A stretch of 64,000 bases of DNA from Octopus vulgaris (Eukaryota). The stretch lies in assembly GCA_951406725.2 (NCBI GenBank), contig OX597821.1:17360001-17424000 (forward strand), in the 5' to 3' direction. This document shows positions 344-61,192 of the stretch, piece after piece. Each line of letters begins with the position of its first letter. The first letter of the stretch is position 1. The position numbers and the translations under genes are program-made. A model generated the notes under the pieces. That model ran no database searches, had not been told where the DNA came from, and saw nothing but the letters and a program-made list of their open reading frames with translations.

Positions 344-440
344 AGCTATGTATGTATGCATCTATATGAATATGCAGGCACACATTCAAGCATTTAAATA
401 AATATATGAAATATGAAATATATAAATAAATATATTGAAA

Positions 441-670
441 GGCGGTGAGCTGGCAGAAACGTTAGCACGCCGGGCGAAATGCGTAGCAGTATTTCGTCTG
501 CCGCTACGTTCTGAGTTCAAATTCCGCCGAGGTCGACTTTGCCTTTCATCCTTTCGGGGTCGATAAATTAAGTACCAGTTACGCACTGGGGTCGATGTAA
601 TCGACTTAACCCGTTTGTCTGTCCTTGTTTGTCCCCTCTGTGTTTAGCCCCTTGTGGGTAGTAAAGAAAT
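441..670 (+). mobile_element. Full-length tRNA-derived SINE (family A) with Tx1-like 3' tail
   Basis: A-box-like tggcagaaacgtta, B-box gagttcaaattcc, central gcctttcatcctttcggggtcgataaa..agtaccag; flanked by direct repeat gaaatatataaataaatatat (415-435 / 666-686); 3' tail matches the LINE 3' end at 35309/38839. Confidence 0.85.
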
Positions 671-1826
671 ATATAAATAAATATATGTGCATACTAAAGT
701 GTATGTATGTATGTGTGTGTGTGGTGTGGGAACAAAACCATATATGTATGCATGTATATCTGTTTCGAGCAGAGCAGTCAATTGCATCACTTAAGTTAAT
801 TAAACGAAACCGTTTCTCTTCACCTGTCTAGATTGATCATTGCGTATCCCAGTAAAAATCGGATTACAACGTTCGCCACTAAGAAAATTATTTTGTTTTC
901 TATGTATTAAAAGCAGCAAATACACAGCATATATTAAAGAATGAATGAAGTACTTGGCGATATTAATACTGACTTTTCAAATCTTTTTAGTATGGTTGTG
1001 TCTCAGGGAAATTAAATAAACGCAATGATGAAAAACGCAAGATATTTTATTTTATTTTTCAAAAAAATGTATTCTCACATTAATTAACTTTGCAATTGTC
1101 CAACTATCTTTGTCTAGTAAACCGCCAATTGTAATTTAAAGCAACATATGGATTTCCGTCTGAAATTTCAAGGATTTCCTATTAGAATTTGTATAACTCT
1201 ATAGGGTGCATGTATGGACGTGTGTTTAAGATCTTCGCTATTACGTCATTTCGCGTTTAGATCAGATTCATGACCGTTTGAGGAAGTGTTTTCTGCTAAT
1301 CCTGGTCAACAAACAGTTTGAGTTTTCACTATAGCTATGGGATTATTTTCATTGCGATTCTGCTTCCGAAGGAAGGTGGTTTTCGTTGTACACCCTGCAT
1401 GATAGAAAACAAAACCTGTCAAAATACTCAGTAGAGTTACGGTCATCCAACAACTGGGAGTGACAGAACCTTGGTCTTTACTGAGACATCTCTCTAGGAG
1501 AGAAAATTTTTAAGTAACGCCCGCTTAGTTGTGATACTGGAGATCTTGCTGTTGCTTGTTACTAGCCTAGTTGTATTTGTAGTTGCAGCCGTTCTCATTA
1601 ATATCTAGGATAAGATGATTTGTCAGCGATGGCCATACTCTTTAACATGTTCATTCGTGCAAACCTGTAGATGTCCATCACTCCTTAGTTGGAATTCTTG
1701 GAGCTTTAAGAGACTATTCTCCACCACTCCAAATCTCAGCCTCCGGCAAATATACAAGTATATACGCTTAGTATATGTGGTTAATAATGTTTCTTATGGT
1801 AGTGGTGCTTCTATTTCATATGTTTG

Positions 1827-1915
<89 letters not shown>

Positions 1916-1916
<1 letters not shown>

Positions 1917-2167
1917 GAGGCGCAATGGCCCAGTGGTTAGGGCAGCGGACTCGCGGTCGTAGGATCGCGGTTTCGATTCCCAGACCGAGCTTTGTGTGTG
2001 TTTATTGAGCGAAAACACCTAAAGCTCCACGTGGCTCCGGCAGGGGGGGTGGAGATCCCTGCTGTAGTCTTTCGCCACAACTTTCTCTCACTCTTTCTTC
2101 CGTTGGCCTGCTCGCTTAGCCAGCGGGGTGGCGTCATTTGAAGGGTAAAACAATGCGAAGCGCATTG
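1916..2167 (+). mobile_element. tRNA-derived SINE (family B head, tail variant 1)
   Basis: tggcccagtggttagggcagcggactc...gtttcgattcc (pol III A/B boxes); head nearly identical to the copy ending at 22834; follows a (TA)n tract. Confidence 0.85.
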
Positions 2168-7209: not shown

Positions 7210-7600
7210 ATATATATTAGCGGCAGAGGCATTATTAATTCGAGAAGCAATATCTATTCCTTTTTAAACGTGGATGTTCTGTGAAGACAAATTATTCTGC
7301 ATTAGACACCTTGAGAGAAACTCATATTAGTTGTTGATGCAAAATGCTCTCTTGAACAAGAATGCATTTTGCACGAAAATCGAATCTGAGAGTTTTGGTA
7401 TCTACTATAACTGCAGTAGATACCATGAAAGAAGCTCTCATGCTGGCTGTCGGTGCAAAATGCACGCTTGTTAGCTGTATAAACAAGAGGGCATTTTGCA
7501 GCAAACTCCAATATTAGAGTCTTTTTCATGGTATCCACCGCAACATAGTTCATTCTAACAAAACATCTACGTTTATGTAGGGATAAATATTACCTCGCGG
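7210..7600. mobile_element. Foldback/MITE-like repeat, copy 1
   Basis: Start tatattagcggcagaggc shared with 8559; internal inverted modules (gtagataccatga...tgcaaaatgc vs gcattttgca...tcatggtatc). Confidence 0.5.
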
Positions 7601-7924: not shown

Positions 7925-8064
7925 TAAGGATTGGTAGTATCGTTAGAGTGTCAGACTACGTACCTTCATATATTTAGTGAAAACCTTAGGTTCTGAGTTC
8001 GAATCCTGCTGATGCTGAATTTTGCCTTTCATCTATCCAGATCGATGACAAAATATAATACCAG
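7925..8064 (+). mobile_element. Degenerate family A SINE fragment
   Basis: ttggtagtatcgttagagtg...ttctgagttcgaatcc...ttttgcctttcatc...ataccag. Confidence 0.6.
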
Positions 8065-8556
8065 CCATGAACTTTTGTCGATATAATTGATAGTCTTTTC
8101 CGTTAAGAACCGTGGATTTAGGGTAAATTTGAAATTACATTTTATATAAACGAAAACCACGTTAGATATTCTGATCGTAGATTTAAGAGTTCTCTCGAGA
8201 AGGTCTTCCCAATGCAGTCTACTTGTTAGTGGAACATCATTAAGATAAATGGAAATGTCGAAGCTTAAATATGTAGAGGCCGTATTCACGAGCGATGGGA
8301 TGCAGGAAGCTGAATTAGGATCACGGTAATGCACCACCTCCAGCATTAAAAAACCGAACTTTCTTCAATCCAGTTTTCGTGCTTATCCTCACTTATGTAC
8401 TACCGTGAATACAAGCGGTTGAAATAGGGTTCCTCCGAGGATTTCTAGAGTAACGTTTTTCGTCAGGGAGCGTGGTTTGGAGATCCAAGTCTAGTCGTTA
8501 AATCTCTGCACCAAGAGATCACAGCTCTGATACAAGGGGCGTGTGATTAGACTATA

Positions 8557-8790
8557 TATATATTAGCGACAGAGGCTGTATTAATACGGAGAGGTAGTAT
8601 TTATCCCCATCTAACAGAACATCCACGTTTAAGACAGGAGATGGCGTTGATTTCTCTCTCCACTAGTGATATAAACCAGCGTGCATTTTGCACCGAAAGC
8701 CATTATGAGAGGTTCTGTCATGGTATCTACCGCAGTAAAGTTTATTCTACCAGTACATCCACGTTTAAGTCAGGATATATATTACCCATG
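8557..8790. mobile_element. Foldback/MITE-like repeat, copy 2
   Basis: Same modules as 7210-7600, some in the opposite orientation. Confidence 0.5.
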
Positions 8791-11570: not shown

Positions 11571-11875
11571 AGTAAATAGGGTAATAAAAATAAATTATTA
11601 TTACCAGTGACCTAGCACAAAAGACGAATTAGTCGTTAGACTATATGTTATTCAAATATAAATACATTAAAAGGCTTCCAAATAAAGAAGCGAGTGCTAG
11701 ATACAACAAAAAGGGGATGAATTCATGAAATGGAATGAAAATCAAAAACGTTTACCAACTCAGCTAATCCTGGTTAGCTGAGTTGGTAAACGTTTTTGAT
11801 TTTCATTCCATTTCATGAATTCATCCCCTTTTGTTGTATCTAGCACTCACTTCTTTATTTGGAAGCCTTTTAATG

Positions 11876-15854: not shown

Positions 15855-15910
<56 letters not shown>

Positions 15911-15912
<2 letters not shown>

Positions 15913-16040
15913 TTATTGCCCACAGGAGGCTAAACACAGAGGGGACAAACAAGGGCAAAAGGATTAAGTCGATTATATTGACCCCAGTGTGTAACTGGTA
16001 CTTATTTAATCGAACCCTAAAGGATGAAAGGCAAAGTCGA
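15911..16040 (-). mobile_element. 5'-truncated family A SINE in a (TA)n tract
   Basis: Reverse complement matches 533-666, including the LINE-like tail tttgtcccctctgtgtttagcc..tgtggg.aataaag. Confidence 0.85.
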
Positions 16041-18622: not shown

Positions 18623-18790
18623 ATAGGCGTAGGAGTGGCTGTGTGGTAAGTAGCTTGTTTACCAACCACATGGTTCCGAGTTCAGTCCCACTGCGTGGCA
18701 CCTTGGGCAAGTGTCTTCTACTATAGCCTCGGGCCGACCAAAGCCTTGTGAGTGGATTTGGTAGGCGGAAACTGAAAAGAAGCCCGCGTA

Positions 18791-18856
<66 letters not shown>

Positions 18857-19084
18857 TGTGTGTGTTTGTGTGTCTGTGTTTGTCCCCGTAGCATTGCTTG
18901 ACAACCAATGCTGGTGTGTTTATGTCCCCGTCACTTAGCGGTTCGGCAAAAGAGACCGATAGAATAAGTACTGGGCTTACAAAAGAATAAGTCCCGGGGT
19001 CGAGTTGCTCGATTAAAAATGATGCTCCAGCATGGCCGCAGTCAAATGACTGAAACAAGTAAAAGAGTAAAAGAGTAAAAGAGT
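18623..19084 (+). mobile_element. Full-length family C SINE (tRNA head, CORE-like segment, internal (TA)n(TG)n, (GAGTAAAA)n tail)
   Basis: tggctgtgtggtaag A-box, gagttcagtccc B-box-like, ccttgggcaagtgtctt; about 10 copies in the window. Confidence 0.9.
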
Positions 19085-21659: not shown

Positions 21660-21998
21660 GTATATTTACTAATAAATATACATATATTCTGGTACAAACA
21701 CGGATACTCACACGTAGATGCATGCAAACACGTATACACATGAAGACAGAAATGTGGAGACCGATTTGGGTAAACATTTTACGGTTATTTCTAACAGATA
21801 GTCCGTTTACATAGATGTCCCTCATACATCTCCATTGTCCTTGTCTTGTAAAAAAAAAAACGTAATTGCTATATTAGGTAATGTATATAGTCCAAAATGT
21901 ACAAAAAGGTGAGATTTAACAGCTGGAGCGCTTTCTTGATGATACACAGAACAAAATATAAATTTAGTAGTTGTATATAAATTTAGTAGTTGTATTAC

Positions 21999-22280
21999 CC
22001 AGTGTTTAGGGTAGCGGACTCGTGGTCGGAGGATCGCGGTTTCGATTCCCAGACCGGGCGTTGTGAGTGTTTATTGAGCGAAAACACCTAAAAGCTTCAC
22101 GAGGCTCCTGCAGGGGTGGTGGCGACCCCTGTTGTACTCTTTCGTCACAACTTTCTCTCGCTCTCTCTTCCTGTTTTTTTAGTAACGCTACGATGGCCTG
22201 GCGTCCCGTCCAGCTGGGGGGAATGCATACGCCACAGAAACCGGGAAACAGGGCCCATGAGTCTGGCTAGGCTTTAAAAG
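21999..22280 (+). mobile_element. Family B SINE (tail variant 2)
   Basis: Head and body match 1916-2100; tail matches 1-60 and 60550-60600. Confidence 0.85.
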
Positions 22281-22499: not shown

Positions 22500-22834
22500 G
22501 GAAGCACTCCGTCGGTTACGACGACGAGGGTTCCGGTTGATCCGATCAACGGAACAGCCTGCTCGTGAAATTAACGTGTAAGTGGCTGAGCACTCCACAG
22601 ACACGTGTACCCTTAACGTAGTTCTCGGGGATATTCAGAGGGATACACAGAGAGTGACAAGGCCGGCCCTTTGAAATACAGGTACAACAGAAACAGGAAG
22701 TAAGAGTGAGAGAATGTTGTGGTGACAGAGTACAGCAGGGATCACCACAATCACAACGCCCGGTCTGGGAATCGAAACCGCGATCCTACGACCGCGAGTC
22801 CGCTGCCCTAACCACTGGGCCATTGCGCCTCCAC
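22500..22834 (-). mobile_element. Family B SINE (tail variant 3)
   Basis: Reverse complement starts agtggaggcgcaatggcccagtggttagggcagcggactcgcgg; 3' part differs from the other copies. Confidence 0.85.
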
Positions 22835-23740: not shown

Positions 23741-24146
23741 GAGGAATGGCTGTGTGGTAAGTAGCTTGCTTACCAGCCACGTGGTTCCGGGTTCAGTCCC
23801 ACTGCGTGACACCTTGGGCAAGTGCCTTCTACTATAGCCGCGGGCCGACCAAAGCCTTGTGAGTGGTATTGGTAGACGGAAACTGAAAGGAGCCCGTCGT
23901 ATATGTGTATATATATATATATGTTTGTGTGTGTAAATGTTTGTGTGTCTGTGTTTGTCCCCTTAGCATCGCTTGACAACCGATGTTGGTGCGTTTACGT
24001 CCCCGTGACTAAGCGGTTCGGCATAAGAGACCAATAGAATAAGTACTAGGCTTACAAAGAATAAGTCCTGAGGTCGATTTGTTCGACTAACGGTGGTACT
24101 CCAGCATGGCCGCAGTCAAATGACTGAAACAAGTAAAAGAGTAAAA
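23741..24146 (+). mobile_element. Family C SINE
   Basis: Aligns along its length to 18623-19084. Confidence 0.9.
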
Positions 24147-30809: not shown

Positions 30810-31131
30810 TGAGGGTAATGCATTGAGAGCTAGTAGTGACCTTCACGAGACAGTGTGCCGAGTGACATCGCTGTGAAATTTGGTGATCATGGGCATGCTG
30901 TAGCATAGTCTGCAAGTTTTCCATCGACAGGAACAAAAAAACCAACGCGAAAGTTTGCGTTAAACTTGGGAAGTGGCTGTTTGGTAAGTAGCTTGCTTAC
31001 CAACAACATGGTTCCGGGTTCAGTCCCACTGCGTGACACCTTGGCCAAGTGTCTTCTACTATAGCCTTGGGCCGACCAAAGCCTTGTGAGTGGATTTGGT
31101 AGACCGAAACAGAAAGAAGCCCTCATATATA

Positions 31132-31183
<52 letters not shown>

Positions 31184-32004
31184 TGTGTTTGTCCCCCCAA
31201 CATCGCTTGACAACCGACGCTGGTGTGTTTACGTCCCCGCAACTTAGCGGTTCGGCAAAAGTGACCGATAGAATAAGTACTAGGCTTACAAAGAATAAGC
31301 CTTGGGGTCGATTTGCTCGACTAAAGGCAGTGCTCCAGTATGGCCCCAGTCAAATGACTGAAACAAGTAAAAGACTAAAGAGAGTAAAAGAGAGTAAGTC
31401 TGCTACAGACATTAAGCATGCTTCGACGAGCTTACAGTGACGAGGCAATGGGTCGTACGCAATATTTCGAGTGGCACGGGCGCTTCAAGAACGTCTCAGG
31501 AAGATGATGTGCGATCTAGAAGACCTGCCACAAGCATCACCCCCGGAAATGTAGTAATGTGCATCGAGAATTCATCCCGCAGAGCCAGACTGTCAATTGG
31601 GAATTCTACTGCAAAGTTTTGAAGCGTTTGCGGGTGGGCATTCGACGAAAGGACCAGAACTATGGAGCCGGAATTATTGAATTCTCCACGACGACAATGC
31701 ACTCTGTCGCCGAGCTCTCCTCACTTGTGAGTTTCTGGTCAAAAACATGGTATCGCTTCCACACCCGCTCTAATCGCCAGATTTAGTACCATCTCTTCCC
31801 CGAGATGAAAATGCAGCTCAAAGATCACCGTTTTGACACCGCTTTCGAATTGCAAAAGACCCTCGATTCGCTTACAGAAAACAACTTCCAGGCCGGATTC
31901 CAAATTTGGCAGGAACGTTGAGAGCGGTGTATTGCTGCGCAGGGTGACGATTTCGAAGGAGATGATGTAAAAACTTTGGTAAATAAGGTACTTTTTTATC
32001 AATC
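30810..32004 (+). pseudogene. Decayed, internally deleted mariner transposase interrupted by a SINE
   Basis: VCVKLGK|SAT..MLRRAYSDEAMGRTQYFEWHGRFK; HREFIPQSQTVNWEFYCKVLKRLR; LHDDN; RCIAAQGDDFEG. Confidence 0.8.
30972..31394 (+). mobile_element. Family C SINE nested in the mariner
   Basis: Aligns to 18623-19084; aagt is present at both junctions. Confidence 0.88.
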
Positions 32005-35308: not shown

Positions 35309-38838
<3,530 letters not shown>

Positions 38839-39139
38839 CTTTCTTTTATTAGCCACACAGGGCTGAATACAGAGGGGACAAATACAAATGCAGAGCTTTT
38901 CTTTTCGAGGGTGGAAAAAAATAAAAATGTAAGATTGCGATCAAAAGGGATCGAGAGGAGGAAAAAAAAAGGAAAAAAAGAAAATCGTGTATCACAGAAA
39001 TAATGGTGTAAACATTGATATAACAAGATTGGGTTCATCCGTGGGAAGAAAAGCCTACAGAAAAGACCACGGGAACCCCAGTCAGGGAGGAAATAAACAC
39101 ATGAGGTCAAAAATGCTCTCTTTCTTTCTTTTTTACGAT

Positions 39140-42100
39140 CTACAGGATCATGCTCAAAATGGTTTCGTTACTAGCACGCACCATCTTTGCAACATTCACC
39201 CATCTTTTATTGAATCTTTCGCGAGACAAAACTTCCCTCTCCATTCTCACCTTCCTTTTCAAGTGGTACTTGAAAAAGTTGATGAGCGAATGGCCAGAGA
39301 GGTAAGTGTTTGTCTCTAATCCTTTCGCTCGAGTCCACCACACACATTCTTTCACCATGGCCACCAGTACGATGAAAACTGCCTTGCCTTCCCGGTTGAG
39401 GGAAGGGGGCGGAGCAATTCTCACGATAGACTCGGCCGATAGGCGGATTCGTCCCACACGTGACAGCAGCCGTTCGGCATAAGCCCACAGGTCGGAAATG
39501 GTTGGACATTGCACGAGTGCGTGCAGAACGGTTTCGTCGCTCTGACCGCATCTCGGGCAAGTCGGTCCAGTGTGTCTGGAACCGTGTCTGTAGAGCTTAT
39601 CCCGAACAGGTAATGCTTCTCGATAGCACTGCCAGGCCAGGGATCTTTGGTGATTGTTCATAGGTCCCGGCCCGAAAGTTGTCCTGAACAGGCGGGTCAG
39701 GTGTTCCTCGTCGACGCCCAGACTCTGCCCGAGTTCGTCGTCGCACCTCCCCTCCACTAATCCTCTATAGAATGCCTTTGTTGTGATGGAGTCGCACAAG
39801 TTCGATCCCGGACGGCAGAGTTGCTTGAGAGCAACGCGACACTCACGGTGCCATTCGCCTAGCCTCGGTCTCTGCTTGATCCATGACTGTAGTTCGTCCA
39901 AGGAGACGAGCTGCGGGAAAGCGCGCCGCACAAAAGGCGACCACCCCTGTTCACCGTTGTCTATGAAGCGCCGGAGATGTCGCAGTCTCAGCGCATGTCT
40001 GCGCATCATCAACCACGGCATGCCCAGCCCTCCATTTAGCGGGTGTTGGCAGCAAATGGATCGCCTGACCATCGGAACGTTTCCCTTCCACAAGAAGCGG
40101 AAGAGTATGCGTTCCAGTTTGGTGATGGTAGGGTCGGGACAAGGCACGACGGTCAGACGGTACTCGATGACGGATGCGATGTACGCGTTCGCCACCTCCG
40201 CCCGACCTTTTAGGGATAGCTTTCTCTCAGTCCATTTCTGGGTGAGAGTAGCCACCCTAGTCGTTATCTCGCCCCAGTTCTTCTCCATTTGGAGGTCCGG
40301 ACCGAACCAGACCCCGAGCAATTTAACCGGTCCGTCCGTCCAGCGTCCCACGATGGAGACGCTGTTGGACGGCATGGGCTTGCTTCTCCAGGTGCCGAGC
40401 CGCAAGCCCACTGACTTTTCCCGGTTAATTTTTGCTCCCGTTACCGCTTCGTATTCTTTCAGTGTCTCGCCGACCAGCTCGATGTGCTCGTAGCTCGACA
40501 CTATGACGGTGACGTCATCCGCGTATGCAGACACGCTCCTCCCGCATCCCAGCTCTCGTGGGATGCCCCTCAGCGTCGCCAGTTTCCGCAGTAGTGGCTC
40601 AAGAGTCAGTACATACAGCAGCGATGAGAGGGGGCATCCTTGACGAACCGAACGCATGATGTTAAAAGGTCTGGATAGATGACCATTTACGCGAACTACT
40701 GAGCGGATGCCGCTGTATAAGGCAGCGATCCAACTGCGGAAAACTGGACCGAAACCAGCCGCTTTGAGGACAGCCTCCAAGTAGTGATGGTCTACCCTAT
40801 CGAAGGCTTTTGATTGATCCAAATTGATCAGCGCCCCACCCATGCCAGGATTTTTAACTACCCTGTCTATGATGTAGCGCATCAGATGGAGGTTGTCATG
40901 AATACTTCTACCCGGCACGGCGCATGTTTGCGCCTTGTCGATTAGTTTCTTGATGACAAGCGCCAACCTCTCGGCTAACACCTTGGCCAAAATTTTCAAA
41001 TCTGCGTTGAGCAGAGTGATGGGCCTGAAATTATCTATGACGTCCCCCTTGTTTGGGTCTTTCTTGATCAGTGCCACTGCTCCTCGCTTTACAAAAGCAG
41101 GAATACTCCCGTTCTGCTGCCAGTTGCAGTAGACAGCTGCCAAGACGCCTCCAAACAAGTCTGGCATATGAAAATAAAATTCGTAGGGCAGACCATCCAA
41201 GCCTGGTGACTTGTCTCTCGCGCAGCCTACCATCGCATCCTGTACGTCCGCAGCTGTGATAGGCTTTTCACAAGACTCCACCTCCCTTGCTGAGAGTCGT
41301 GGCAAGGCATGCAGGTAGGCACTAAAGTCCACTCTGCTTTCTGACTCACCACTTGTCCCAAACAGTTGGGTGAAGTGTTGTTGAAAAACCCCACACATCC
41401 TTTTAGGCTCGAGTAATTCGCGCCCCTGTTCATCTATAAGAGACTTGATGGTGGCTCTGTTGCCTCGTTGCGTCTCCACCACTCGGGCCTCTTGGGCGGC
41501 TCCAACTCCTTCGTTCCTCAGAGCACGCATCCTAGCTCTGACAACGCATCCCTCGTGTTTGGCGTTGAGGTGTTGGTCGAGGGCCAATCTCGCCGCCAGT
41601 ACGTTGGACGCGATGCCAGTTCTAAGTGCCTCTTCTAAAACCTTAACTAATTCTCCCTCTACTCTATTTCGGTCTAATGCTAGGGCTCTACTGTATCTGA
41701 CTGATTCTGCTTTAATCGCTTTTTTAGGGAATACCACCATCTGTTGTTGATGATGGTACCCGTCAAAGCTCTCTTAACTAATGTGCTGATCCGGTCCCTG
41801 TAAACCTGTCGTGCTGTAAAAGACGCGTTCAGTTTCCAGTAACCAGGACCCTGCCTATGTGTCTTATCTAAGTCAAGTGTACAAGTCACAAACTTGTGAT
41901 CTGTGTAACTGACTATATGAAATTGTGGACAACCTACACTATTTTTATCTATTGTCCTACAGAATACTCTATCTAAGTATGATCTGGACGACCCGATGCG
42001 GTTACTCCATGTCCACATTGGCACATTCGGGTGGTCCAGTCGGTACCTGTCAGACAGTTGGAAACGTCTGAGCAGGTCTTTGAGGCATTTGCATCCCCTT

Positions 42101-42576
42101 CTATTGCTATCTCTGCCCACGTAGTCTAGATGCGTGTCCAGGGTGGCATTCCAATCCCCCACTAAAAGTAAAGGACGAGACGTTCCCATGAAAGACTCTA
42201 GACGTCGAAAGAAATCTGGTCGGCCTGTTAAGGACGGAGCATAAACTGCTATCAGTCGAAAAGCACACTCATTGCTGCCATCGACATCCAAAACGACCAG
42301 CCTACCCTCCGGGTCTAGGAAATTTGCTCTTACTTTGAGATCCAGACTCTTCCGGATAAGCACCGCGGTGCCACCTCCGCCCATTCTCGGTAGACACGGA
42401 GAAAAATAAATGTTGAAATGTGTACCGAAAATGTGCTGGAGTGCCCGCAAGCTGTGGAGTCTGGTCTCACTGATGGCTATGATATTCAGATTTAGTGACT
42501 TGATGTCATTTAACAGGTAGCCTTGTTTCCAAGGCGACCCCAAGCCACGTACATTTATACTACCTATTCTGAGCAT
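39140..42576 (-). CDS. ORF2: APE endonuclease + reverse transcriptase + CCHC; one homopolymer frameshift at ~41722
   Basis: SINVRGL, SETRL, GDWN, SYLDRVF, TDH (APE) in ORF 41680-42594; RT motifs and CPRCGQSDETVLHALVQC in ORF 39140-41740; the sister copy has 7 As at this site and stays in frame. Confidence 0.92.
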
Positions 42577-42618
42577 GTTCCGATAAAAGTGCAAAAAAGG
42601 AAAAGGAGAGAGAAAAGG

Positions 42619-44757
42619 TTACTTGTTTTCCGAAAGTTCTTTGTCTTTCACCTCACGGTCTTCTTCTATGAGGCTTTTATACAGTTTTTTTGATGAGTAC
42701 TTTTGAAATCTCCCTACTGCATCAGGGTAAAGAGATTTCAGGGTGCTGTATGTGTTCTGTGTCACGTGTATTATTTTAATGTGTTGTGGTGGTGTTGTGT
42801 GTGGGTGGTTACTTGTTTTTATGTCGTTTTCAGTAATGTTAGTGTTTGACCTAATGTGTTCCATTAGGTCGTGGTTGTTTGTGTTTATGGCTGTCAACAT
42901 TTTTGGGGGGTTTGATGATGGTGTGTTTGTGTTGATGTGTGTGTTTTCTGTGGATGTTTTTGTTTCGGGAGTGGTGTATCTTCCCGCTTTGTTTGTTATT
43001 TTTTCTTTTCTTTTTTTCCCCTTTTTCTTCTCCCCCCTGTGGCTATTTGCCAATCTTCCGTGTCTTCTTCGTCTAATGACAGATCAGACGAATCGGAGTC
43101 TGGAAGAGGGAAAGTATTGGGGTCTATTGTCGACTGTGTTGGTTTTGTTGTTGGTGTTGGTTGGTGAGCGTTTGGTTGTGGTGTGTGCGGTTTTGGATGT
43201 GGGGTTTGGGTATTTTGTGTTTGAGTGATTGTGGGTATTGTTGTGTTGTTTAGGGTCTCAATTTTGTGGGGATTTGGAGTTGTAATTGTTTCTTCATTTA
43301 TGCTGGGTGTCTTTTTGGCAGATGTCCTTGGTTTGGGAGTTGGTATATTCTTGGTTGTTGTTGTTGGTGATGCTGCTTCTGTTCTTGGTGCTGCAGTTGG
43401 TGTGGTTGTTTGTTTGGTGAGGTTTGTTCCTGCAAAAAGTGGTGTGGGTAGTAGACCTTGTTTATTTGTTTTTGTTTCCGGCTGCTGTTGTTTTCTTGCG
43501 GCAGATTTGCAGTCTTTTTTGAGATGTTGCTCACTGCCGCATATGTAGCAACGTGGTCTTTCTGCCATCGACGACCACATATAACTTGTGGTCGTCTGAT
43601 ACACATATCTGGGTGGGTATTTTTTTTATATCTTCATGATGTATATGTAGAAGAAATTCTATTTTCTTTCCCACCCAGTTTTTATGCTCTGTGACTGTGG
43701 TTTCCAAAATAGTATAATTCGCCATTTTTATGCATAAAGCCTTTACAAGCCATAGACTATTGGCTATTTTGGGGACATTGTTTAGAGTGATCTTAGTCAC
43801 TTTCTGTCCCCGATAGCTTGGTGTAAGTTGGAGTTCATCTGAGTGAAGAGTTAGCGTTGAGAAATGTCTAGCTAACTCTTCGGTGTAGAAAACGACTTGT
43901 ATGTGGGCAAATTTGTTCCACCAGGTTACATATTCTTTGTGATCCCAGATGGGTTTCAGGCACTTCTCTATTTTGCCTGTGTTGGCCTTCTCTGGGATTT
44001 TTGTTTTTTTGTTAACTATTTTATAAATGATTGTTCGTCTTTTTTCATTTTCCAAAATATCTTCTGGTATGTTAATTTTTACGATACCTTCTGATTCTGT
44101 TATTTTGATGTTCGTGTCCTGTAATTGTTGAGCCGTAAAGTATATTGTTGTTTTTTTTTCTTTAATCGCCTCAGCGAAATTTGTTGTTGTTTTGTTATTG
44201 TTGTTGCTTGTGGTGATGTTGTTGGCTGCAGTTTGTAAAATTGGTGTGTTAGGTTCGATCGTGCAAGTAGGAAGGGGTGGAAAATTGCCTGCGTACTTTA
44301 GTCCTGCACTAGGGCAAAATTCGACATTTCGTTTGCTTGTCGTCGTTATTTTTTCACTTGTTGGTGATGGAGTGAGCAGTGGTTGAAGGGAGTTGTTGTT
44401 GTCGTCGTTGTTGTTGTTGTTATTGTCGTTCTTGGTGACGGCTGTGGTGTTGGTAGTATTTGTAGCATTGACGGCACGGTCTTTGGTGGCGGTGATGGTG
44501 ATGTTGGTGTTGTTATTGGTGGCAATATCTTTAGTAGGGATAGCAGTTTTAGTAGCAGATTCTGCCATGGTGTTGGTGGTGGTGGTGGACTCACTGATGG
44601 TGTTGACGGTGCTTGGCCTTGCGACCTTTGTTTTGTATTTGTTGCTGTTGGTGGTGGTGGAGTTGTCAGGTTCGGCGTATGCTAACAGAGCATCCTGTTT
44701 TTCTGTTTCTCCGTCACGCTTGACTTGCAACTCAGCCTCGTGGTGGTCAGTGGCCAT
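42619..44757 (-). CDS. ORF1: Thr/Asn-rich N-terminus, globular mid-region, CCHC zinc knuckle, basic C-terminus; two apparent frameshifts
   Basis: ORFs 43531-44787, 42996-43604 (CYICGSEQHLKKDC) and 42619-43053 overlap at purine runs. Confidence 0.8.
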
Positions 44758-44980
44758 TTTGGAAATAAAATGGCTAAATGAAACCACGAAGGCTATGAGA
44801 ATTTTTTCTTTTAAATTTTGCCCACAAGGGGCAAAATTTTGTGTCGATATTTATCAAAGGTTTACAGTGGATGTTGTTGTACAACTTTTAAGCAAAAAAT
44901 GTTTGTCAATATACACTTTTAAATAGTCAAAATAAATGATTACCTTCGGAGCCGAAACGACATCACATCCGTCAGTCAAG

Positions 44981-46649
<1,669 letters not shown>

Positions 46650-47532
46650 TGTTTCTTTATTAGCCACACAGGGCTGCACACAGATAGAACAAATTACAAG
46701 GTAGAGGTAAGGTAGAGCTTTTCTTTTGAAGGTTTAAGAAAGAAAAAAAAAGAAAAAAAAAAAAAGGAAGGGGGAGTTTCGATCAAAAGGGATCGTAAAA
46801 GGAGAGAAAGAGGACAAAAAAAAGGGGTTTAAAAAAAGGGGGGAGGGAAAAAAATTGATCAATAGGGATCGTTATCACAGAAATGTCAATATGAAGTGTA
46901 AAGGGGAGGACAGGTGAGGTTTACCCGTGCAAAGAAAAGCCTACGGAAAAGACCACGGTAACCTCGGTCAATGATGTCACATTTTATATTTCTTTTTTTT
47001 TTTTTTTTGCAAATAAGCAACTCTCTGTTTTCGATTTCTGGGTTCATAGGACTATGCTCAAGGTGGCTTCGTCATTCATACGTGCCATTCTTGCTACATT
47101 CACCCATCTTTTTTAAAACATTCGCTAGACAAAACCTGCCTCTCTACTCTCACTTTCCTTTTCAAGTGGTACTTGAAGAAGTTGATGAGAGATTGACCAG
47201 AGAGGAAAGTGTTTGTCTCCAATCCTTTCAGACGCGTCCACCAGATACATTCCTTCGCCATAGCCACAAGGATGATGAAAATAGCTCTTCCTTCCCGTTT
47301 GAAGGAAGGAGGCGTGACAATATTGACGATAGACTCAGCTGATAAACCGACTCGTCCCACACGTGACAGCAGTTGTTCGACATAAGCCCACAGGTCGGAA
47401 ATTGTTGGACACTGAACGAGTGCGTGCAGAACGGTTTCGTCGCTCTGACCGCATCTCGGGCAGGTCGGCCCCGTGTTTCTCGAGCCGTGTCTGTAGAGCT
47501 TATCCCGAACGGGTAGCGCTTCTCGGTAGCAC
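46650..47532 (-). mobile_element. Tx1-type LINE subfamily 2, 5'-truncated copy (~0.88 kb)
   Basis: ORF2 C-terminus homologous to subfamily 1 with a distinct 3' UTR; ends ggctaataaagaaaca|tatc. Confidence 0.93.
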
Positions 47533-47947
<415 letters not shown>

Positions 47948-49120
47948 TGTTTCTTTATTAGCCACACAGGGCTGCACACAGATAGAACAAATTACAAGGT
48001 AGAGCTTTTCTTTTGAATGTTTAAAAAAAAAAAAAAAAAAAAAAAAAGGTAAGGGGGAGTTTCGATCAAAAGGGATCGTAAAAGGAGAGAAGGAGGACAA
48101 AAAAAGGGGGTTAAAAAAAGGGGGAGAGGAAGAAAAAAAAAAAAAAAAAAATTGATCAATAGGGATCGTTATCACAGAAATGTCAATATGAAGTGTAAAG
48201 GGGAGGACAGGTGAGGTTTACCCGTGGAAAGAAAAGCCTACGGAAAAGACCACGGTAACCTCGGTCAATGAAGTCACATTTTATATTTCTTTTTTTTTTT
48301 TTTTTTTGCAAATAAGCAACTCTCTGTTTTCGATTTCTGGGTTCATAGGACTATGCTCAAGGTGGCTTCGTCATTCATACGTGCCATTCTTGCTACATTC
48401 ACCCATCTTTTTTTAAAACATTCGCTAGACAAAACTTGCCTCTCTACTCTCACTTTCCTTTTCAAGTGGTACTTGAAGAAGTTGATGAGAGATTGACCAG
48501 AGAGGAAAGTGTTTGTCTCCAATCCTTTCAGACGCGTCCACCAGATACATTCTTTCGCCATAGCCACAAGGATGATGAAAATAGCTCTTCCTTCCCGTTT
48601 GAAGGAAGGAGGCGTGACAATATTGACGATAGACTCAGCTGATAAACCGACTCGTCCCACACGTGACAGCAGTTGTTCGACATAAGCCCACAGGTCGGAA
48701 ATTGTTGGACACTGAACGAGTGCGTGCAGAACGGTTTCGTCGCTCTGACCGCATCTCGGGCAGGTCGGCCCCGTGTTTCTCGAGCCGTGTCTGTAGAGCT
48801 TATCCCGAACGGGTAGCGCTTCTCGGTAGCACTGCCAGGCCAGGGATCTCTGGAAGTTGTCCATGGGCCCTGGCCCGAAAGTCGTCCTGAACAGGCGGGT
48901 CAGGTACTCCTCGTCGACGTCCAGGTTCGCCCCGAGCTCGTCGTCGTACCTCCCCTCCACTAAACCCCTATAGAATGCTTTGGTTGTGTTGAAGTCACTT
49001 AAGGTCGACCCAGGACGGCAGAGTTGCTTGAGAGCAACGCGACACTCGCGGTGCCATTCGCCCTTCCTCGGCCTCTTTTTGATCCACGACTGCAGTTCGG
49101 TCATGGAGACGAGCTGCGGG
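47948..49120 (-). mobile_element. Tx1-type LINE subfamily 2, 5'-truncated copy (~1.17 kb)
   Basis: Open frame PQLVSMTELQSW...CPRCGQSDETVLHALVQC...ATLSIVL* (stop 48343); near-identical to 46650-47532. Confidence 0.93.
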
Positions 49121-49557
<437 letters not shown>

Positions 49558-49653
49558 TACATGTGTGTGTGTGCGCGCGCGTGTGTTTTCACCGTGACCA
49601 AGACAACAGCCACTGAGGATTATGTCCAGGTGAAGAAATATTGTCAGTAATCG

Positions 49654-49735
49654 CTTTGAGACCGCAACCCGTTCACTGACAAAATTCCGTGCTGCGTCAG
49701 TGAACTTTGTCAGTGAACAGGTTGCGGTCTCAAAG
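49654..49735. repeat. Hairpin with ~34-bp arms
   Basis: ctttgagaccgcaacccgttcactgacaaaattc / gaactttgtcagtgaacaggttgcggtctcaaag. Confidence 0.85.
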
Positions 49736-50563
49736 AGACGAAAATATTTCGACAAATTAAATTTAGATGTTGAAGTGAATCGAACGGATTTTGTGTTTCT
49801 TAAATGGCTTATAAACACCTTCCACGCTGCAATTGTTAACGTTCATACATTTATCTGTTAAATGGGGATAATACTACTGCTTGGTCACTTGGCACTGCAC
49901 TAGTACAGAAAATATCTCTACATTTTCGTTAAAACGTAACACTTTAAATTAATGGAAATCCAGATGATATTTCTAAGGTCAAAAAAGTATACAAAGGCTT
50001 CCATTTTGGTACTAAAATAAAAGAAGAAAACGAAGGTAGAAGAAAGTTAATGTATCTTGTGACAACTAAACTAATAAATGAAATAATATTTTTTTTATGT
50101 ATATTTCATTTTATTTATATTTTGTTTCATTCATTGGTGATAGTTATTTGGCATTCGTTTCTCTAACTGATCGAATGGCTATGGAATGGCACTGAAAGAT
50201 TTGTTATTACGTCAATAGGTTTCAGAATGTAGTATCACAAAAGCTGACAAAATTGTCTGTTAAGATTGTTTATTAAAATTCATTGATCATTTAATATGCC
50301 AATAAGATCTGATTTGTTTTTTATCCTTATATGTTCTTCTATTTTCTTTACATTTTAAATGAATCGTTATATTTCACTGACATCGAGAGAATCTCTTCAA
50401 TATCTTTATTATTTTACACATAAATATGGAATGAAATATGGAATCAAAATCGATGAGCTATTTCTGTATGTGTGTATCAAGTGTCTGCATCCCAGTATAG
50501 AGATGTACGTATGTATTTTATATGTTTATGTATCACTAGATATGTAATATATATTCTTCTATT

Positions 50564-50718
50564 CGTTTACTTGTTTCAGTAATTTGACTGCGTCCATGCT
50601 GGAGCACCGCCTTCAGTCCAACAAATCGAGCACAGTACTTATTCTATCGATCTCATTTGCTGGACCGCTATGTTACGGTTGTCAAGCGATGGTGCGGAGA
50701 CAAACACAGACACACGAC

Positions 50719-50761
<43 letters not shown>

Positions 50762-50925
50762 GACGGTCTTTTTTCAGTTTCCTTCTACCAAATCCACTCA
50801 CAAGGCTTTAATTGACCCGAGGCTATAGTAGAAGACACTTGGCCAAGTTGCCACGCAGTAGGACTGAGCTTGGAACCATATGGTGGGTAAGCAACCTACT
50901 TACCACACAACCACGCCTTCACCTA
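50564..50925 (-). mobile_element. Family C SINE, degenerate
   Basis: Reverse complement aligns to 18623-19084. Confidence 0.85.
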
Positions 50926-51247: not shown

Positions 51248-51313
51248 ACTATCTATCTATATCTATAGATATATATCTGTAAATGTTATATGTGACAATT
51301 ATTCGGTAGCCAT

Positions 51314-51374
51314 GATAAAACTCCGAGTTTCGGATGCCGAGGTGGAAATCCACGCCGCCATATCTTCAGTTATC
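51314..51374 (-). ncRNA. Type I hammerhead ribozyme motif (minus-strand copy)
   Basis: gataa-CUGAAGA-...gtgg attt ccac...cggcatcc-GAAA-ctcggag-UU-ttatc. Confidence 0.65.
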
Positions 51375-51415
51375 TGGCCATCGGAAAAATGCTATCCGAT
51401 GTTATACTATGGCCG

Positions 51416-51475
51416 GATAACTGAAGATATGGCGGCGTAGATTTCCAGACGGCATCCGAAACTCGGAGTTTTATC
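51416..51475 (+). ncRNA. Type I hammerhead ribozyme motif (plus-strand copy)
   Basis: gataa-CUGAAGA-tatggcggcg...cggcatcc-GAAA-ctcggag-UU-ttatc; stem I gataa/ttatc. Confidence 0.65.
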
Positions 51476-51577
51476 TTGGCTACCGAATAATTGTCACATG
51501 TTACATTTACAGATAAATTACTCTATTTACATAATATCGAGGTCTCTTTCTTTCTTTTGTTGTCTTACCGTTCTTAT

Positions 51578-54499: not shown

Positions 54500-55190
54500 C
54501 GAGTGAGTTTGAGGACAGCGAAGTTCAAAATTGGAAAAGGAGTTCGTCAGGGCTGTATTCTTTCTCCATACTTGTTCAACACCTACACTCAGTCTCTAAT
54601 GCTAAATGCAACACAAGAAGAAGATGGCACCAAAATACAAAGCTTGCAAATTTCTTATCTAATTATGCAAACGAGACTGATCCACTTGCCACGACTGAAA
54701 CCGAACTAAAAGAAATGATAAACAGGGTTGAGACGCTATCAAATATTCATGGTCTTTATTTCCACTATAAGAAAAGAAGAAGTCATGGTTGTAGAAGAAA
54801 ATAAAGTAAATGTTAACATCAAACTAGATAGTGAAAGACTTGAATAGGTTCAATTGTACCCAAATTTGGATCCCAAATCTCTGATGAAACCTTGTGTAAG
54901 TCAGAAATTAAGACAAGAACGTCCTTGGTGAAGCTTAATAATGACTAGAGCAGCAAAAATGTCCCGACTAAGTTAAAAACAAGGTTAGTGCGAGCGTTCA
55001 TTTAACCAATAGGCATCTATGGTTGCGAAACATGAACTCTGAATACATTTTAAGAGAATATAATCATTGTATTTGAAATGTTGGTGTCTCGGAGAATGTT
55101 ACGAGTCTCTTACAAGGACCATCGGACAAATGAATGGGTGTTCGAACAAGTAAGAATGGTCAACACCCGAATATTGTGAAAAAATAAAAG
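54500..55190 (+). pseudogene. Decayed RTE-type LINE reverse transcriptase fragment
   Basis: FKIGKGVRQGCILSPYLFN; degenerate YADD (YANE); GIYGCET*TL; RMLRVSYKDHRTNEWV. Confidence 0.8.
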
Positions 55191-57781: not shown

Positions 57782-58140
57782 TAGGCGTAGGAGTGGCTGT
57801 GTGGTAAGTAGCTTGCTTACCAGCCACCTGGTTCCGGGTTCAGTCTCACTGCGTCTTCTACTATAGCCTTGGGTCGACCAAAGCCTTGTGAGTGGATTTG
57901 GTAGACGGAAACTGAAAGAAGCCCGTTGTAGATATGTATATATATATATATGTTTGTGTGTCTGTGTTTGTCCCCCCAACATCGCTTGACAACCGATGTT
58001 GGTGTGTTTACGTCCCCGTAAAGAGACCGATAGAATAAGTACTGGGCTTACAAAGTCCTGGGCCGATATGCTCGACTAAAGGCGGTGCTCCAGCATGGCC
58101 ACAGTCAAATGACTGAAACAAGTATAAGAGTAAAAGAGTA
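57782..58140 (+). mobile_element. Family C SINE
   Basis: Aligns to 18623-19084 with small deletions. Confidence 0.9.
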
Positions 58141-58373: not shown

Positions 58374-58724
58374 TAGGCGCAGGAGTGGCTGTGTGGTAAG
58401 TAGCTTGCTAACCAACCACATGGTTCCGGGTTCAGTCCCACTGCGTGGCATCTTGAGCAAGTGTCTTCTGCTATAGCCCCGAGCCGACGGAAACTGAAAG
58501 AAGCCTGTCGTATATATGTATATATATATATATGTGTGTGTGTGGTGTGTATGTGTTTGTCTGTCTGTGTTTGTCCCCCTAGCATTGCGGTTCGGCAAAA
58601 GAGACAGATAGAATGAGTACTGGGCTTACAAAGAATAAGTCCCGGGGCCGATTTTCTCGACTAAAAGGCGGTGCTCCAGCATGGCCGCAGTCAAATGACT
58701 GAAACAAGTAAAAGAGTAAAAGAG
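58374..58724 (+). mobile_element. Family C SINE
   Basis: Aligns to 18623-19084 with deletions. Confidence 0.9.
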
Positions 58725-58799: not shown

Positions 58800-59003
58800 A
58801 TTTGTGATGTATATGCTCCCCACCCCTGTTTTCGGGATGCCGTTCCGTCGAACGAATACTCATTTTTGTCAGCTAAATGGACTAGAACAACGTGAAATGA
58901 AGTGCTTTGCTCAAGAATACAACGTATCACCCAGTCTAGGAATCGAAACCACAATCCTACGAAGATGAGTCCAACACCCTAACCACTAAGCCACACGCCT
59001 TCA
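58800..59003 (-). mobile_element. Family B/D-related SINE
   Basis: Reverse complement gaaggcgtgtggcttagtggttagggtgttggactc...gtttcgattcct. Confidence 0.75.
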
Positions 59004-59389
59004 TTTGTTCTGAAAGTTATTAGGACGCAAAAACCGCTAGCTGGACAGTTGTGCAGGTATGATCTCCTACTCTACCGCATAAGCAAAGGTGGGTCAAAAT
59101 GCACCTGCGATTAAATACACAAAATGAATGGATGATCATCACGGGAATATTCTGGAAGTAAGCAACAGCACAGGTCCACATTCTTTCAGTAATTACAACA
59201 AAATATATATCTTTCCCCTCTTTTTCATTCCTTTTCATGTACCTCATACACTTATTCCTTCTTTTTATCTCTCTCTCCTCTCTCGTGTTCACTCACACAT
59301 ATGCTTGCACATATATACACACACACATGCAGCTAACACACATTCTCCCTGATTCACACTTTTTTTCTCAGCCACACGCACATACACAG

Positions 59390-59667: not shown

Positions 59668-60022
59668 CGCAGGAGTGGCTGTGTGGTAAGTAGCGTGGCA
59701 TCTTGGGCAAGTGTCTTCTGCTATAGCCTCGGGTCGACCAATGCCTTGTGAGTGGATTTGGTAGACGGAAACTGAAAGAAGCCTGTCGTATATATGTATA
59801 TATATATGTATGTGTTTGTGTGTCTGTGTTTGTCCCCCTAGCATTGCTTGACAACTGATACTGGTGTGTTTACGTCCCCGTCACCTAGCGGTTCGGCAAA
59901 GAGAACGATAGAATAAGTACTGGGCTTACAAAGAATAAGTCCCAGGGTCGAGTTGCTCGATTAAAGGCGGTGGTCCAGCATGGCCGCAGTCAAATGACTG
60001 AAACAAGTAAAAGAGTAAAAGA
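59668..60022 (+). mobile_element. Family C SINE
   Basis: Aligns to 18623-19084; B-box region deleted. Confidence 0.9.
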
Positions 60023-60393
60023 GAGAGAGAGAGTGACCTCACATACAATGGGCTAACAAGAGTACCTCTATCGAGTTGCTAGAACTGGCAACGAAGTATC
60101 ATTCAAATCACATGCTACAGTTCTAAAATAGAAATATCTTATTGGCTAATGTGATCCTGATCATAGAACTGCCCAATCAGTTTTGGCCTTGGGTTAAGCA
60201 ACAATGAGCTGATACACAAGCACACTTACTCATTTTTTTTCTATCGTTCTTTCACGTGTGTGTCAAGTGGAAGACTGCTCGTGTTCGGGTACGACCATTT
60301 ATTAGGTATAGACAACAAATACATCTTAAAGTAAAACGTAGCCGCGAAGGCGACAGGTGAATCACGACCTCATCCACCTGTATTAATCTATCA

Positions 60394-60603
60394 TGGAGGT
60401 GTGTTGCTTAGAGGTTAGGGTGTCGGACTCGTGTTCGCAAGATTGTAGTTTCGATTCCTGGATCGAGCAACGCGTTCTGATCTTGAGCAAAACACTTCCT
60501 TTCGCTTTGCTCCAGTCCACTCAGCCGGTAAAAAAGGGTGATCCTACAACGGACCGGAATCCTGTCCAGGTGGGGAATATATACGCCATGAAGCCAAGAA
60601 ACT
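60394..60603 (+). mobile_element. Family B/D-related SINE
   Basis: ggaggtgtgttgcttagaggttagggtgtcggactc...gtttcgattcct; tail resembles 22190-22245. Confidence 0.75.
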
Positions 60604-60763: not shown

Positions 60764-60964
60764 CTTTTACTCTCTTTACTCTTTTACTTGTTTCAGTCAT
60801 TTGACTGCGGCCATGCTGGAGTACCGCCTTTAGTCGAGCAACTCGACCCCGGGACTTATTCTTTGTAAGCCCAGTACTTATTCTATCTGTCTCTTTTGCC
60901 GAACCGCAAAGTTACGGGGACGTAAACACACCAGCATCGGTTGTCAAGCAATGCTAGAGGGACA
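60764..60964 (-). mobile_element. 3' half of family C SINE
   Basis: Reverse complement matches 18880-19084. Confidence 0.9.
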
Positions 60965-61192
60965 AAAAAGATTCTGCGTATCAAACTGATTCTTGTGAAT
61001 GAAGAGTTCAGAAAACTGCATTTACTTTTCAGATAGAATATCTTATCTCAGTGGCAAAACATTGAATGGGACGATCAGGAAATGGACGATTTTCAGCTTT
61101 TAAATCGGGGTATTTTCCTTCTAAACAGATTTTTGACGAGAACTAGAGAATTCATCTCTCCTGATATCCCCTTGATACATACACACACACAA

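What the first reader, a model, noticed from the sequence alone, without database searches (positions are those of the whole stretch)
441..670. tRNA-derived SINE shares its 3' tail with the Tx1-type LINE (candidate LINE-SINE pair)
Seen: the SINE ends tttgtcccctctgtgtttagccccttgtgggtagtaaagaaa; the subfamily 1 LINE ends tttgtcccctctgtattcagccctgtgtggctaataaaagaaag. A second SINE copy (15911-16040) has the same tail. The full copy has a duplication of up to 21 bp, consistent with TPRT. Known: shared 3' tails mark stringent LINE-SINE partnerships, mostly with L2, CR1 and RTE; L1/Tx1 partners are uncommon. Inference: this SINE is mobilised by this LINE lineage.
Basis: partly seen in the sequence, partly recalled or inferred. 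Interest (0 to 1): 0.8.

Follow-up and report, generated by a model that had tools for sequence, protein, structure and literature searches.

The report
Octopus SINE carries Tx1-type LINE tail
A very abundant short mobile repeat, likely from an octopus, ends in nearly the same 35 to 50 letters as a long retrotransposon of the L1/Tx1 group, so it is likely copied by the enzyme of that element or, more likely, of a close relative with a different landing site, a pairing rarely described for this group.

Summary
Observation confirmed. The SINE spans 439-671. Its end matches all four LINE 3' ends in the window: 36/43 to subfamily 1, and 28/35 ungapped and flush to subfamily 2; 0 of 1000 shuffles reach this. 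The 21-bp duplication is real. Contigs of four public runs cover the tail at about half the depth of the core, so it is not a rare chimera; a sister SINE has the same head and core but another tail from about 606. The LINE is L1/Tx1-group, and its end is conserved between subfamilies that differ at 34 of 104 four-fold sites. Against 'this lineage' as the mobiliser: all 8 LINE junctions lie in (TATC)n, neither SINE copy does, and the terminal hairpins differ in loop and register. Most likely the tail came from this Tx1-like group and a sister family drives the SINE. The comparison with all LINE families could not be run: no genome is held. Known L1-clade tail pairs are three, in plants and algae; ten literature searches showed no animal case.

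The parts
439..671 (+). Full-length SINE copy, 233 nt
   Evidence: Depth in four runs rises over 100-fold at 433-443 and falls after 674; loose ends before 439 and behind 671
439..529 (+). tRNA-like head: box A-like 451-461, box B 515-524, acceptor-like stem, long internal hairpin
   Evidence: Motifs; fold of 441-530 at -42.8 kcal/mol, z -4.37, 0 of 200 shuffles; no ARAGORN or Rfam tRNA hit
530..606 (+). Central body, shared with a sister SINE that has another tail, with an old copy at 7987-8090, and in part with the body of SINE family B
   Evidence: Loose ends behind 606 in all four runs
607..671 (+). Swappable 3' module; 628-671 (weakly from about 618) is LINE-like; terminal hairpin 647-659
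415..435 (+). Left copy of the 21-bp target-site duplication
   Evidence: Identical to 666-686; only two copies in the window
666..686 (+). Right copy of the duplication; its first 6 nt overlap the SINE's 3' end (candidate priming microhomology)
   Evidence: priming is inferred
15906..16040 (-). Second, 5'-truncated SINE copy ending in (TA)n
   Evidence: 86% identical over 138 columns; junctions
38839..44980 (-). Full-length (6.1 kb) L1/Tx1-group LINE, subfamily 1: ORF1 with zinc knuckle, ORF2 with endonuclease, RT and zf-RVT; each ORF is split by one frameshift; (TATC)n on both sides
35309..38227 (-). 5'-truncated subfamily 1 copy, 99.7% identical to the full copy, (TATC)n on both sides
47948..49119 (-). 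5'-truncated subfamily 2 copy (82% amino-acid identity to subfamily 1), (TATC)n on both sides
46650..47532 (-). Second 5'-truncated subfamily 2 copy, (TATC)n on both sides
38840..38882 (-). LINE subfamily 1 terminal tail shared with the SINE (also 35310-35352)
   Evidence: 36/43, E=1.8e-6; hairpin pair probabilities 0.93-1.00 in 3' UTR context
46650..46684 (-). LINE subfamily 2 terminal 35 nt shared with the SINE (also 47948-47982)
   Evidence: 28/35, ungapped, flush
44813..44839 (-). Perfect 11-bp hairpin in the LINE 5' UTR whose stem core and CUUGU loop equal the SINE's terminal hairpin
   Evidence: -13.3 kcal/mol, z -3.64; 15/16 match, E=0.048 against the LINE and 0.49 against the window; may be chance

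Best explanation
A high-copy SINE with a likely tRNA-derived head ends in a 35-50 nt segment that matches the 3' end of an L1/Tx1-group LINE; it likely gained this tail from that LINE group by a template switch, and is likely copied by the ORF2 protein of a sister family that does not target (TATC)n. Shown: shared flush terminus, family-wide presence of the tail, tail exchange point near 606-612, constraint on the LINE end, a 21-bp duplication, (TATC)n placement of the LINE but not of the SINE copies. Inferred steps: RNA polymerase III transcribes the SINE from boxes A and B; ORF2p binds the tail (pyrimidine tract, small stem-loop, A-rich end); the endonuclease nicks AT-rich DNA; the RNA's last bases pair with the nicked strand (6-nt overlap at 666-671); target-primed reverse transcription gives a copy with a 15-21 bp duplication.
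For: Tail match beyond chance. SINE and LINE end at the same base and neither has a poly(A) tail. Depth over the tail (631-641) is 0.52-0.65 of the core peak in four runs of four studies and three organism labels (summed depth is not a copy number). A sister SINE leaves the alignment at 606 with another tail in all four runs, so the tail is the exchanged module on the SINE side. The two LINE subfamilies differ at 34 of 104 four-fold sites, yet the 18 nt around the terminal hairpin are identical, as expected for a cis element. At least three further sister lineages of this ORF2 exist in public proteins, at 60-70% identity to subfamily 2 over the C-terminal part (one is named as Argonauta hians). 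O. vulgaris has 80 L1-Tx1 consensus families, 13 recently active (PMC13282606, Table 1 and supplement).
Against: No sister family's 3' UTR was seen, so the proposed partner is not identified. The comparison with non-Tx1 LINE tails could not be run (no genome held). The shared segment is short. Its 5' part (613-636) also resembles a mid-body stretch of SINE family B (20-22 of 24), so only 637-671 is LINE-specific. The SINE hairpin is weak (z -0.25 and -0.15; pair probabilities 0.3-0.5) and shows no covariation with the LINE in either register (only three independent lineages). The tRNA origin is not confirmed by any model hit. Only one duplication was seen.
Confidence: 0.55

Rival explanations
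1. The (TATC)n-inserting family itself mobilises the SINE. Its microsatellite preference would come partly from read-through RNA pairing with the target, so a SINE RNA with a different 3' end would land elsewhere.
For: The tail matches both subfamilies. LINE copies end with no poly(A), directly in the repeat. The SINE's last 6 nt equal the first 6 nt of its duplication, which fits priming by pairing. Subfamily 1 is young (99.7% between copies). Read-through pairing in R1-clade elements is recalled, not checked.
Against: Kojima 2015 states that target choice is mainly set by the endonuclease, and SINEU-3 inherits it (313 of 347 copies; PMC4494074). The hairpin loops differ, and loops decide specificity in ZfL2. 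Contigs over the SINE are mostly 90-95% like the window copy with CpG decay, so most copies look older than subfamily 1.
Confidence: 0.2
2. The tail is a relic. It came from this LINE group once, but the SINE is now copied by a relaxed enzyme, or by an unrelated LINE, that reads only the A-rich end or a general hairpin.
For: Shifted hairpin register, weak folding and no covariation. A sister SINE with the same head and core does well with another tail. Target mismatch.
Against: The SINE tail is 80% identical to subfamily 2, more than the 67% between the two LINE subfamilies at four-fold sites, which points to a recent transfer or to constraint. There is no poly(A).
Confidence: 0.13
3. The direction is reversed or indirect: the LINE took its end from the very abundant SINE, or both took it from a third, non-Tx1 element that is the true partner.
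For: The SINE is far more abundant and is built of exchanged modules, one shared with family B. No full LINE library was tested.
Against: Two diverged LINE subfamilies share the end, and their conserved block continues upstream of the SINE-like part. On the SINE side the tail is the swapped module.
Confidence: 0.1
4. Chance or convergent resemblance of two AT-rich ends.
For: The segment is short and holds an AATAAA-like motif.
Against: 0 of 1000 and 0 of 5000 shuffles; 28/35 flush against a background best of 21/35.
Confidence: 0.02

Closest known systems
L1-clade tail pairs in plants and algae: ZmSINE2/ZmSINE3 with LINE1-1_ZM, SINEX-3_CR with L1-1_CR (Ohshima 2012 PMC3472496, passages; Ohshima 2013 PMC3747384, passages and Table 1)
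   Same: tRNA-headed SINE sharing a short (45-80 nt) 3' end with a hairpin with an L1-clade LINE whose end is more conserved than its body
   Different: Animal host; target-specific Tx1-type LINE; no poly(A) or poly(T) tail; no compensatory changes shown here
SINEU with Tx1-Mar in crocodilians (Kojima 2015 PMC4494074; parts 1, 3, 4 of 5 read)
   Same: A SINE linked to a Tx1 element
   Different: There the link rests on a shared target and shared 5' heads, and no LINE sharing the SINEU-1 3' end was found. Here the 3' end is shared and the target is not.
Stringent L2/CR1/RTE pairs such as UnaSINE1-UnaL2 and ZfL2 stem-loops (PMC4176376, passages; PMC3747384 Table 1)
   Same: Shared terminal stem-loop as the likely ORF2p recognition site
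   Different: Other LINE clade; those tails end in short tandem repeats; recognition was shown by assay, here it is untested and the loops differ
Kibi, Koshi and crocodilian microsatellite-targeting Tx1 families (as described in PMC4494074)
   Same: Tx1-type LINE inserted in a microsatellite
   Different: Targets there are (TC)n, (TTC)n, (TTCC)n or (TTTC)n; here (TATC)n; no SINE partner is described for them in the parts read
Octopus SINEs OK, OR1, OR2 (Ohshima and Okada 1994; seen only as a citation; the name OK is recalled)
   Same: tRNA-derived octopus SINEs; this family may be one of them or already be in Repbase/Dfam libraries
   Different: Could not be compared: the paper and the SINEBase supplements were not readable. 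No octopus pair is in the 58-pair table.

Membership tests
tRNA-derived SINE (SINEBase definition) | Short (<700 bp), interspersed, at least 100 copies | tested here: met
   233 nt; 663,022 of 40.6 million contigs laid in run X1, with sharp edges and unrelated flanks; exact copy number not obtainable
tRNA-derived SINE (SINEBase definition) | At least 60% identity to a tRNA over 60 nt; pol III boxes A and B | tested here: inconclusive
   Box A-like and box B motifs and an acceptor-like stem; no ARAGORN or Rfam tRNA hit; no direct tRNA alignment made
tRNA-derived SINE (SINEBase definition) | Transcribed by RNA polymerase III | not testable with these tools
   No internal run of four T is compatible; run X16 is only guessed to be RNA
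tRNA-derived SINE (SINEBase definition) | Retroposition marks (duplication, 5' truncation) | tested here: met
   21-bp duplication in 1 of 2 copies; the other is 5'-truncated with no visible duplication
Tx1 clade LINE | ORF2 with APE-type endonuclease, RT and C-terminal zinc motif, L1-group affinity | tested here: met
   PF03372, PF00078, PF13966; best solved relative human L1 ORF2p E=3e-49 against R2 E=1e-19
Tx1 clade LINE | ORF1 with gag-type CCHC knuckle (feature recalled) | tested here: inconclusive
   zf-CCHC E=7.5e-4, 19.9 bits, just under the 20.8 cut-off
Tx1 clade LINE | Target-specific insertion (common in the clade) | tested here: met
   8 of 8 junctions of 4 copies in (TATC)n, same orientation; all in one array, so not independent loci
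Tx1 clade LINE | RT tree placement with named Tx1 references | tested here: inconclusive
   Tree of 37 RTs puts it among fish, turtle and lancelet elements, apart from plant, algal and fungal ones, with open deep forks; no labelled Tx1 or mammalian L1 reference was in the tree
Stringent LINE-SINE pair | Shared 3'-terminal sequence | tested here: met
Stringent LINE-SINE pair | Conserved stem-loop with the same loop or compensatory changes | tested here: inconclusive
   Both fold a 4-bp hairpin at the same place, but loops are 5 and 6 nt, register is shifted, no two-sided change
Stringent LINE-SINE pair | Same insertion signature as the partner | tested here: not met
   For the (TATC)n families: 0 of 2 SINE copies in (TATC)n; no such flank among 24 loose ends shown. 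Lowers 'this family is the partner', not 'the tail is Tx1-derived'.
Stringent LINE-SINE pair | Best tail match among all LINE families of the genome | not testable with these tools
   No genome held; collection scans gave no relatives
Stringent LINE-SINE pair | Tail-dependent trans-mobilisation | not testable with these tools
   Needs an assay
MetaSINE superfamily | 66-bp Meta domain after the tRNA head | tested here: inconclusive
   No resemblance by eye to BivaMeta-SINE1 or BivaMD-SINE1 in part 1 of 4 of the supplement of PMC4824008; no alignment computed; dropped as a lead

The most novel reading that the evidence does not exclude
The first animal SINE shown to ride an L1/Tx1 element through a shared 3' tail, and one of the most abundant repeats of its genome, is driven by the (TATC)n-specific enzyme itself yet lands outside the microsatellite, because in this Tx1 lineage the RNA's 3' end, not only the endonuclease, picks the site.
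Probability: 0.18. Interest if true: 0.8.

Novelty: new variant of a known kind. Interest (0 to 1): 0.5.

Why it matters
Tail sharing between SINEs and LINEs is textbook, but the L1 group is the stated exception: 3 of 58 pairs, all in plants and algae, out of over 800 L1-clade families (PMC3472496). Ohshima proposed that sequence-specific RNA recognition was ancestral in the L1 clade and was lost in mammals and most plants. An animal Tx1-type pair would add the missing animal example and give a short, testable cis element with no poly(A). It would also name a likely engine for part of the octopus SINE expansion (SINEs are 11.6% of the O. vulgaris genome, PMC13282606). The mismatch of landing sites makes a direct test possible of whether endonuclease or RNA sets the target.

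Tried and rejected
No whole genome is held, so no genome-wide tail survey. Tail patterns: 0 loci in viral contigs, 0 in prokaryote genomes, 3 loci in metagenomes, none with any similarity to the window's SINE or LINE (taken as chance). ORF2 relatives with DNA: none in viral or prokaryote collections. No RNA holder listed for the LINE; run X16 is only guessed to be RNA, so expression is not claimed. ARAGORN and Rfam: no tRNA hit. MetaSINE lead dropped. Motif searches in supplements of PMC4758252 (4 files searched, 1 not searchable) and PMC5804259 found no matching SINE; SINEBase supplements were not readable; Albertin 2015 is not held; these may hold the family's name. The ESM Atlas gave only unnamed RT clusters; cluster look-ups gave no clade names. 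Pair counts showed no covariation in either register (one search was mis-indexed and is disregarded). The sister SINE's tail is not in the window. Family B's tail does not match the LINE ends (scores 14-16). Earlier findings of this scan: nothing. Ten paper searches listed no animal SINE with a Tx1 or L1 tail; Repbase, Dfam and most subscription journals were not searched.

Full report
Setting. The window is animal DNA rich in microsatellites. The closest named relative of its LINE protein is from Argonauta hians at 65% identity, so the host is likely an octopod; this is an inference. No whole genome is held.

The SINE's last 42 nt align to four places in the window, and each is the 3' end of a LINE copy on the minus strand: 36/43 to two copies of subfamily 1 (E=1.8e-6) and 33/42 to two copies of subfamily 2 (E=2.7e-4). 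Shuffles do not reach these scores: 0 of 1000 for the full copy against each of four 3' UTRs, and 0 of 5000 when only the tail is shuffled. The last 35 nt match subfamily 2 at 28/35, ungapped and flush at both ends; the best unrelated site in the window has 21/35. The second SINE copy (15906-16040, minus strand) is 5'-truncated and carries the same tail with 5 changes in 35. The 21-bp duplication is real and occurs only twice in the window. Its first six bases are also the SINE's last six, which fits priming by base pairing (inferred).

The SINE family. Contigs of four public runs (four studies, three organism labels) were laid on 400-700. 663,022 of 40.6 million contigs were laid in X1, 634,414 in X4, 326,638 in X15 and 6,895 in X16. 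Depth rises over 100-fold at 433-443 and falls after 674, and loose ends mark 439 and 671 as the bounds. Depth over the tail (631-641) is 0.52-0.65 of the core peak. Summed depth is not a copy number, but it excludes 'a few chimeras'. Most differences are C>T and G>A, as in old methylated copies. All four runs show a loose end behind 606 with one other sequence: a sister SINE with the same head and core and a different tail. So the tail is an exchanged module. The head has a box A-like motif, a box B and an acceptor-like stem, and folds strongly (z -4.37), but neither ARAGORN nor Rfam calls it a tRNA. The tRNA origin is likely, not shown. One of the runs may be the source of the window.

The LINE. 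One full-length copy (44980-38839) and three 5'-truncated copies lie in tandem in one (TATC)n array; all 8 junctions are in the repeat. ORF2 has endonuclease, RT and zf-RVT domains; ORF1 has a weak zinc knuckle. Each ORF of the full copy is split by one frameshift. The best solved relative is human L1 ORF2p (E=3e-49; R2 1e-19). A tree of 37 RT domains (37 of 40 chosen rows; 3 were too short) places it among fish, turtle and lancelet elements with unresolved deep forks and without named Tx1 references. L1/Tx1 group is secure; Tx1 proper is likely from the target and ORF1 type. The two subfamilies differ at 34 of 104 four-fold sites, yet the 18 nt around the terminal hairpin are identical. The hairpin is well predicted in all four 3' UTRs (pair probabilities 0.86-1.00). 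This fits a constrained cis element, as in stringent LINEs.

What does not fit a direct partnership. First, the target: neither SINE copy is in (TATC)n, and no such flank is among the 24 loose ends shown (1620 rows hidden). In the one known Tx1-SINE case the SINE inherits the target (313 of 347 SINEU-3 copies; PMC4494074). Second, the hairpin: the SINE has a 5-nt loop in a register shifted by one base, the LINE a 6-nt loop; the SINE's fold is no better than shuffles (z -0.25, -0.15) and there is no covariation. In ZfL2 the loop decides which protein binds (PMC4176376). Third, 613-636 also resembles a mid-body stretch of a second SINE family in the window, so only 637-671 is LINE-specific. Sister lineages of the LINE exist: three more in public proteins, and O. 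vulgaris has 80 L1-Tx1 families, 13 recently active. Their 3' ends could not be fetched.

Mechanism. Most likely (0.55) the SINE took its tail from this Tx1-like group and is copied by a sister family with another target. Next (0.2), the (TATC)n family does the copying and its targeting depends partly on RNA pairing with the site. A relic tail read by a relaxed enzyme (0.13), reversed or third-party origin (0.1) and chance (0.02) follow. Together, a Tx1-group origin of the tail has about 0.88. Transcription, binding and mobilisation are all inferred.

Comparison with print. Ohshima's survey lists 58 pairs, three with L1-clade tails, all in plants and algae, and none in octopus (PMC3472496 passages; PMC3747384 passages and Table 1). 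Kojima's SINEU-Tx1-Mar link has no shared 3' end (parts 1, 3 and 4 read). The 2026 O. vulgaris annotation (parts 1 and 2 of 3 read, supplement searched) counts families and names no pairs in those parts. Passages of PMC4758252, PMC3531059, PMC5786205, PMC8967140 and PMC10294476, and parts 1-3 of PMC4824008, gave no Tx1 tail pair. Ten searches found no animal case, but Repbase, Dfam and the 1994 octopus SINE paper were out of reach, and so abundant a repeat is probably catalogued already.

Verdict. A real feature and a new variant of a known kind. The shared tail is solid; the exact partner is open. Interest 0.5.

Noticed in passing
window 44839-44813 (-), LINE 5' UTR: Perfect 11-bp hairpin with the same stem core and CUUGU loop as the SINE's terminal hairpin (15/16; E=0.048 against the LINE). 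The sister SINE's tail also reaches a CTTGT after a GC-rich stretch at the end of the 30 letters shown. Could be a shared protein-binding motif, or chance.
   Followed up: partly
window 489-671 and 438-502 (joints): Recurrent joint from the SINE's end (671) to internal position 488/489 in 48, 52, 40 and 9 contigs, and a rarer joint from 502 to 438/439. Either nested insertion of the SINE into itself with a duplication of about 15 bp, or partial dimers made by template jumping at the loop of the head hairpin.
   Followed up: partly
behind window 606 and before 505/508 (loose ends): A sister SINE family with the same core, a variant head and a different tail; its partner is unknown and no copy of its tail is in the window.
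   Followed up: partly
window 18630-19057, 23742-24131, 30969-31365, 50572-50918, 57789-58120, 58381-58706, 59693-60005, 60789-60965: A second abundant SINE family (B) with a tRNA-like head, an internal (TA)n tract and its own tail; it shares two short body stretches with the SINE studied.
   Followed up: partly
window 7930-8110 (+): Old, about 70% identical relative of the SINE's head and core with an unrelated 3' end.
   Followed up: partly
window 35309-49119 (-): Four LINE copies of two subfamilies stacked in one (TATC)n array; (GATA)n as a Tx1 target is not among the targets named in the paper read.
   Followed up: partly
window about 39040-39075 (-) and its match in subfamily 2: A second conserved block in the LINE 3' UTR (24/30 in two adjacent windows) with complementary ends, a possible further RNA element.
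   Followed up: no
window 1914-2101, 21998-22171, 22696-22834, 58809-59004, 60393-60584: Further tRNA-headed short repeats of other families.
   Followed up: no
window 11665-11875, 51277-51512, 49635-49750, 7241-7599 with 8670-8786: Long palindromic or inverted elements, MITE-like.
   Followed up: no
window about 54500-55160 (+): Decayed fragment of another LINE reverse transcriptase, by eye RTE-like; its 3' end does not match the SINE tail.
   Followed up: no
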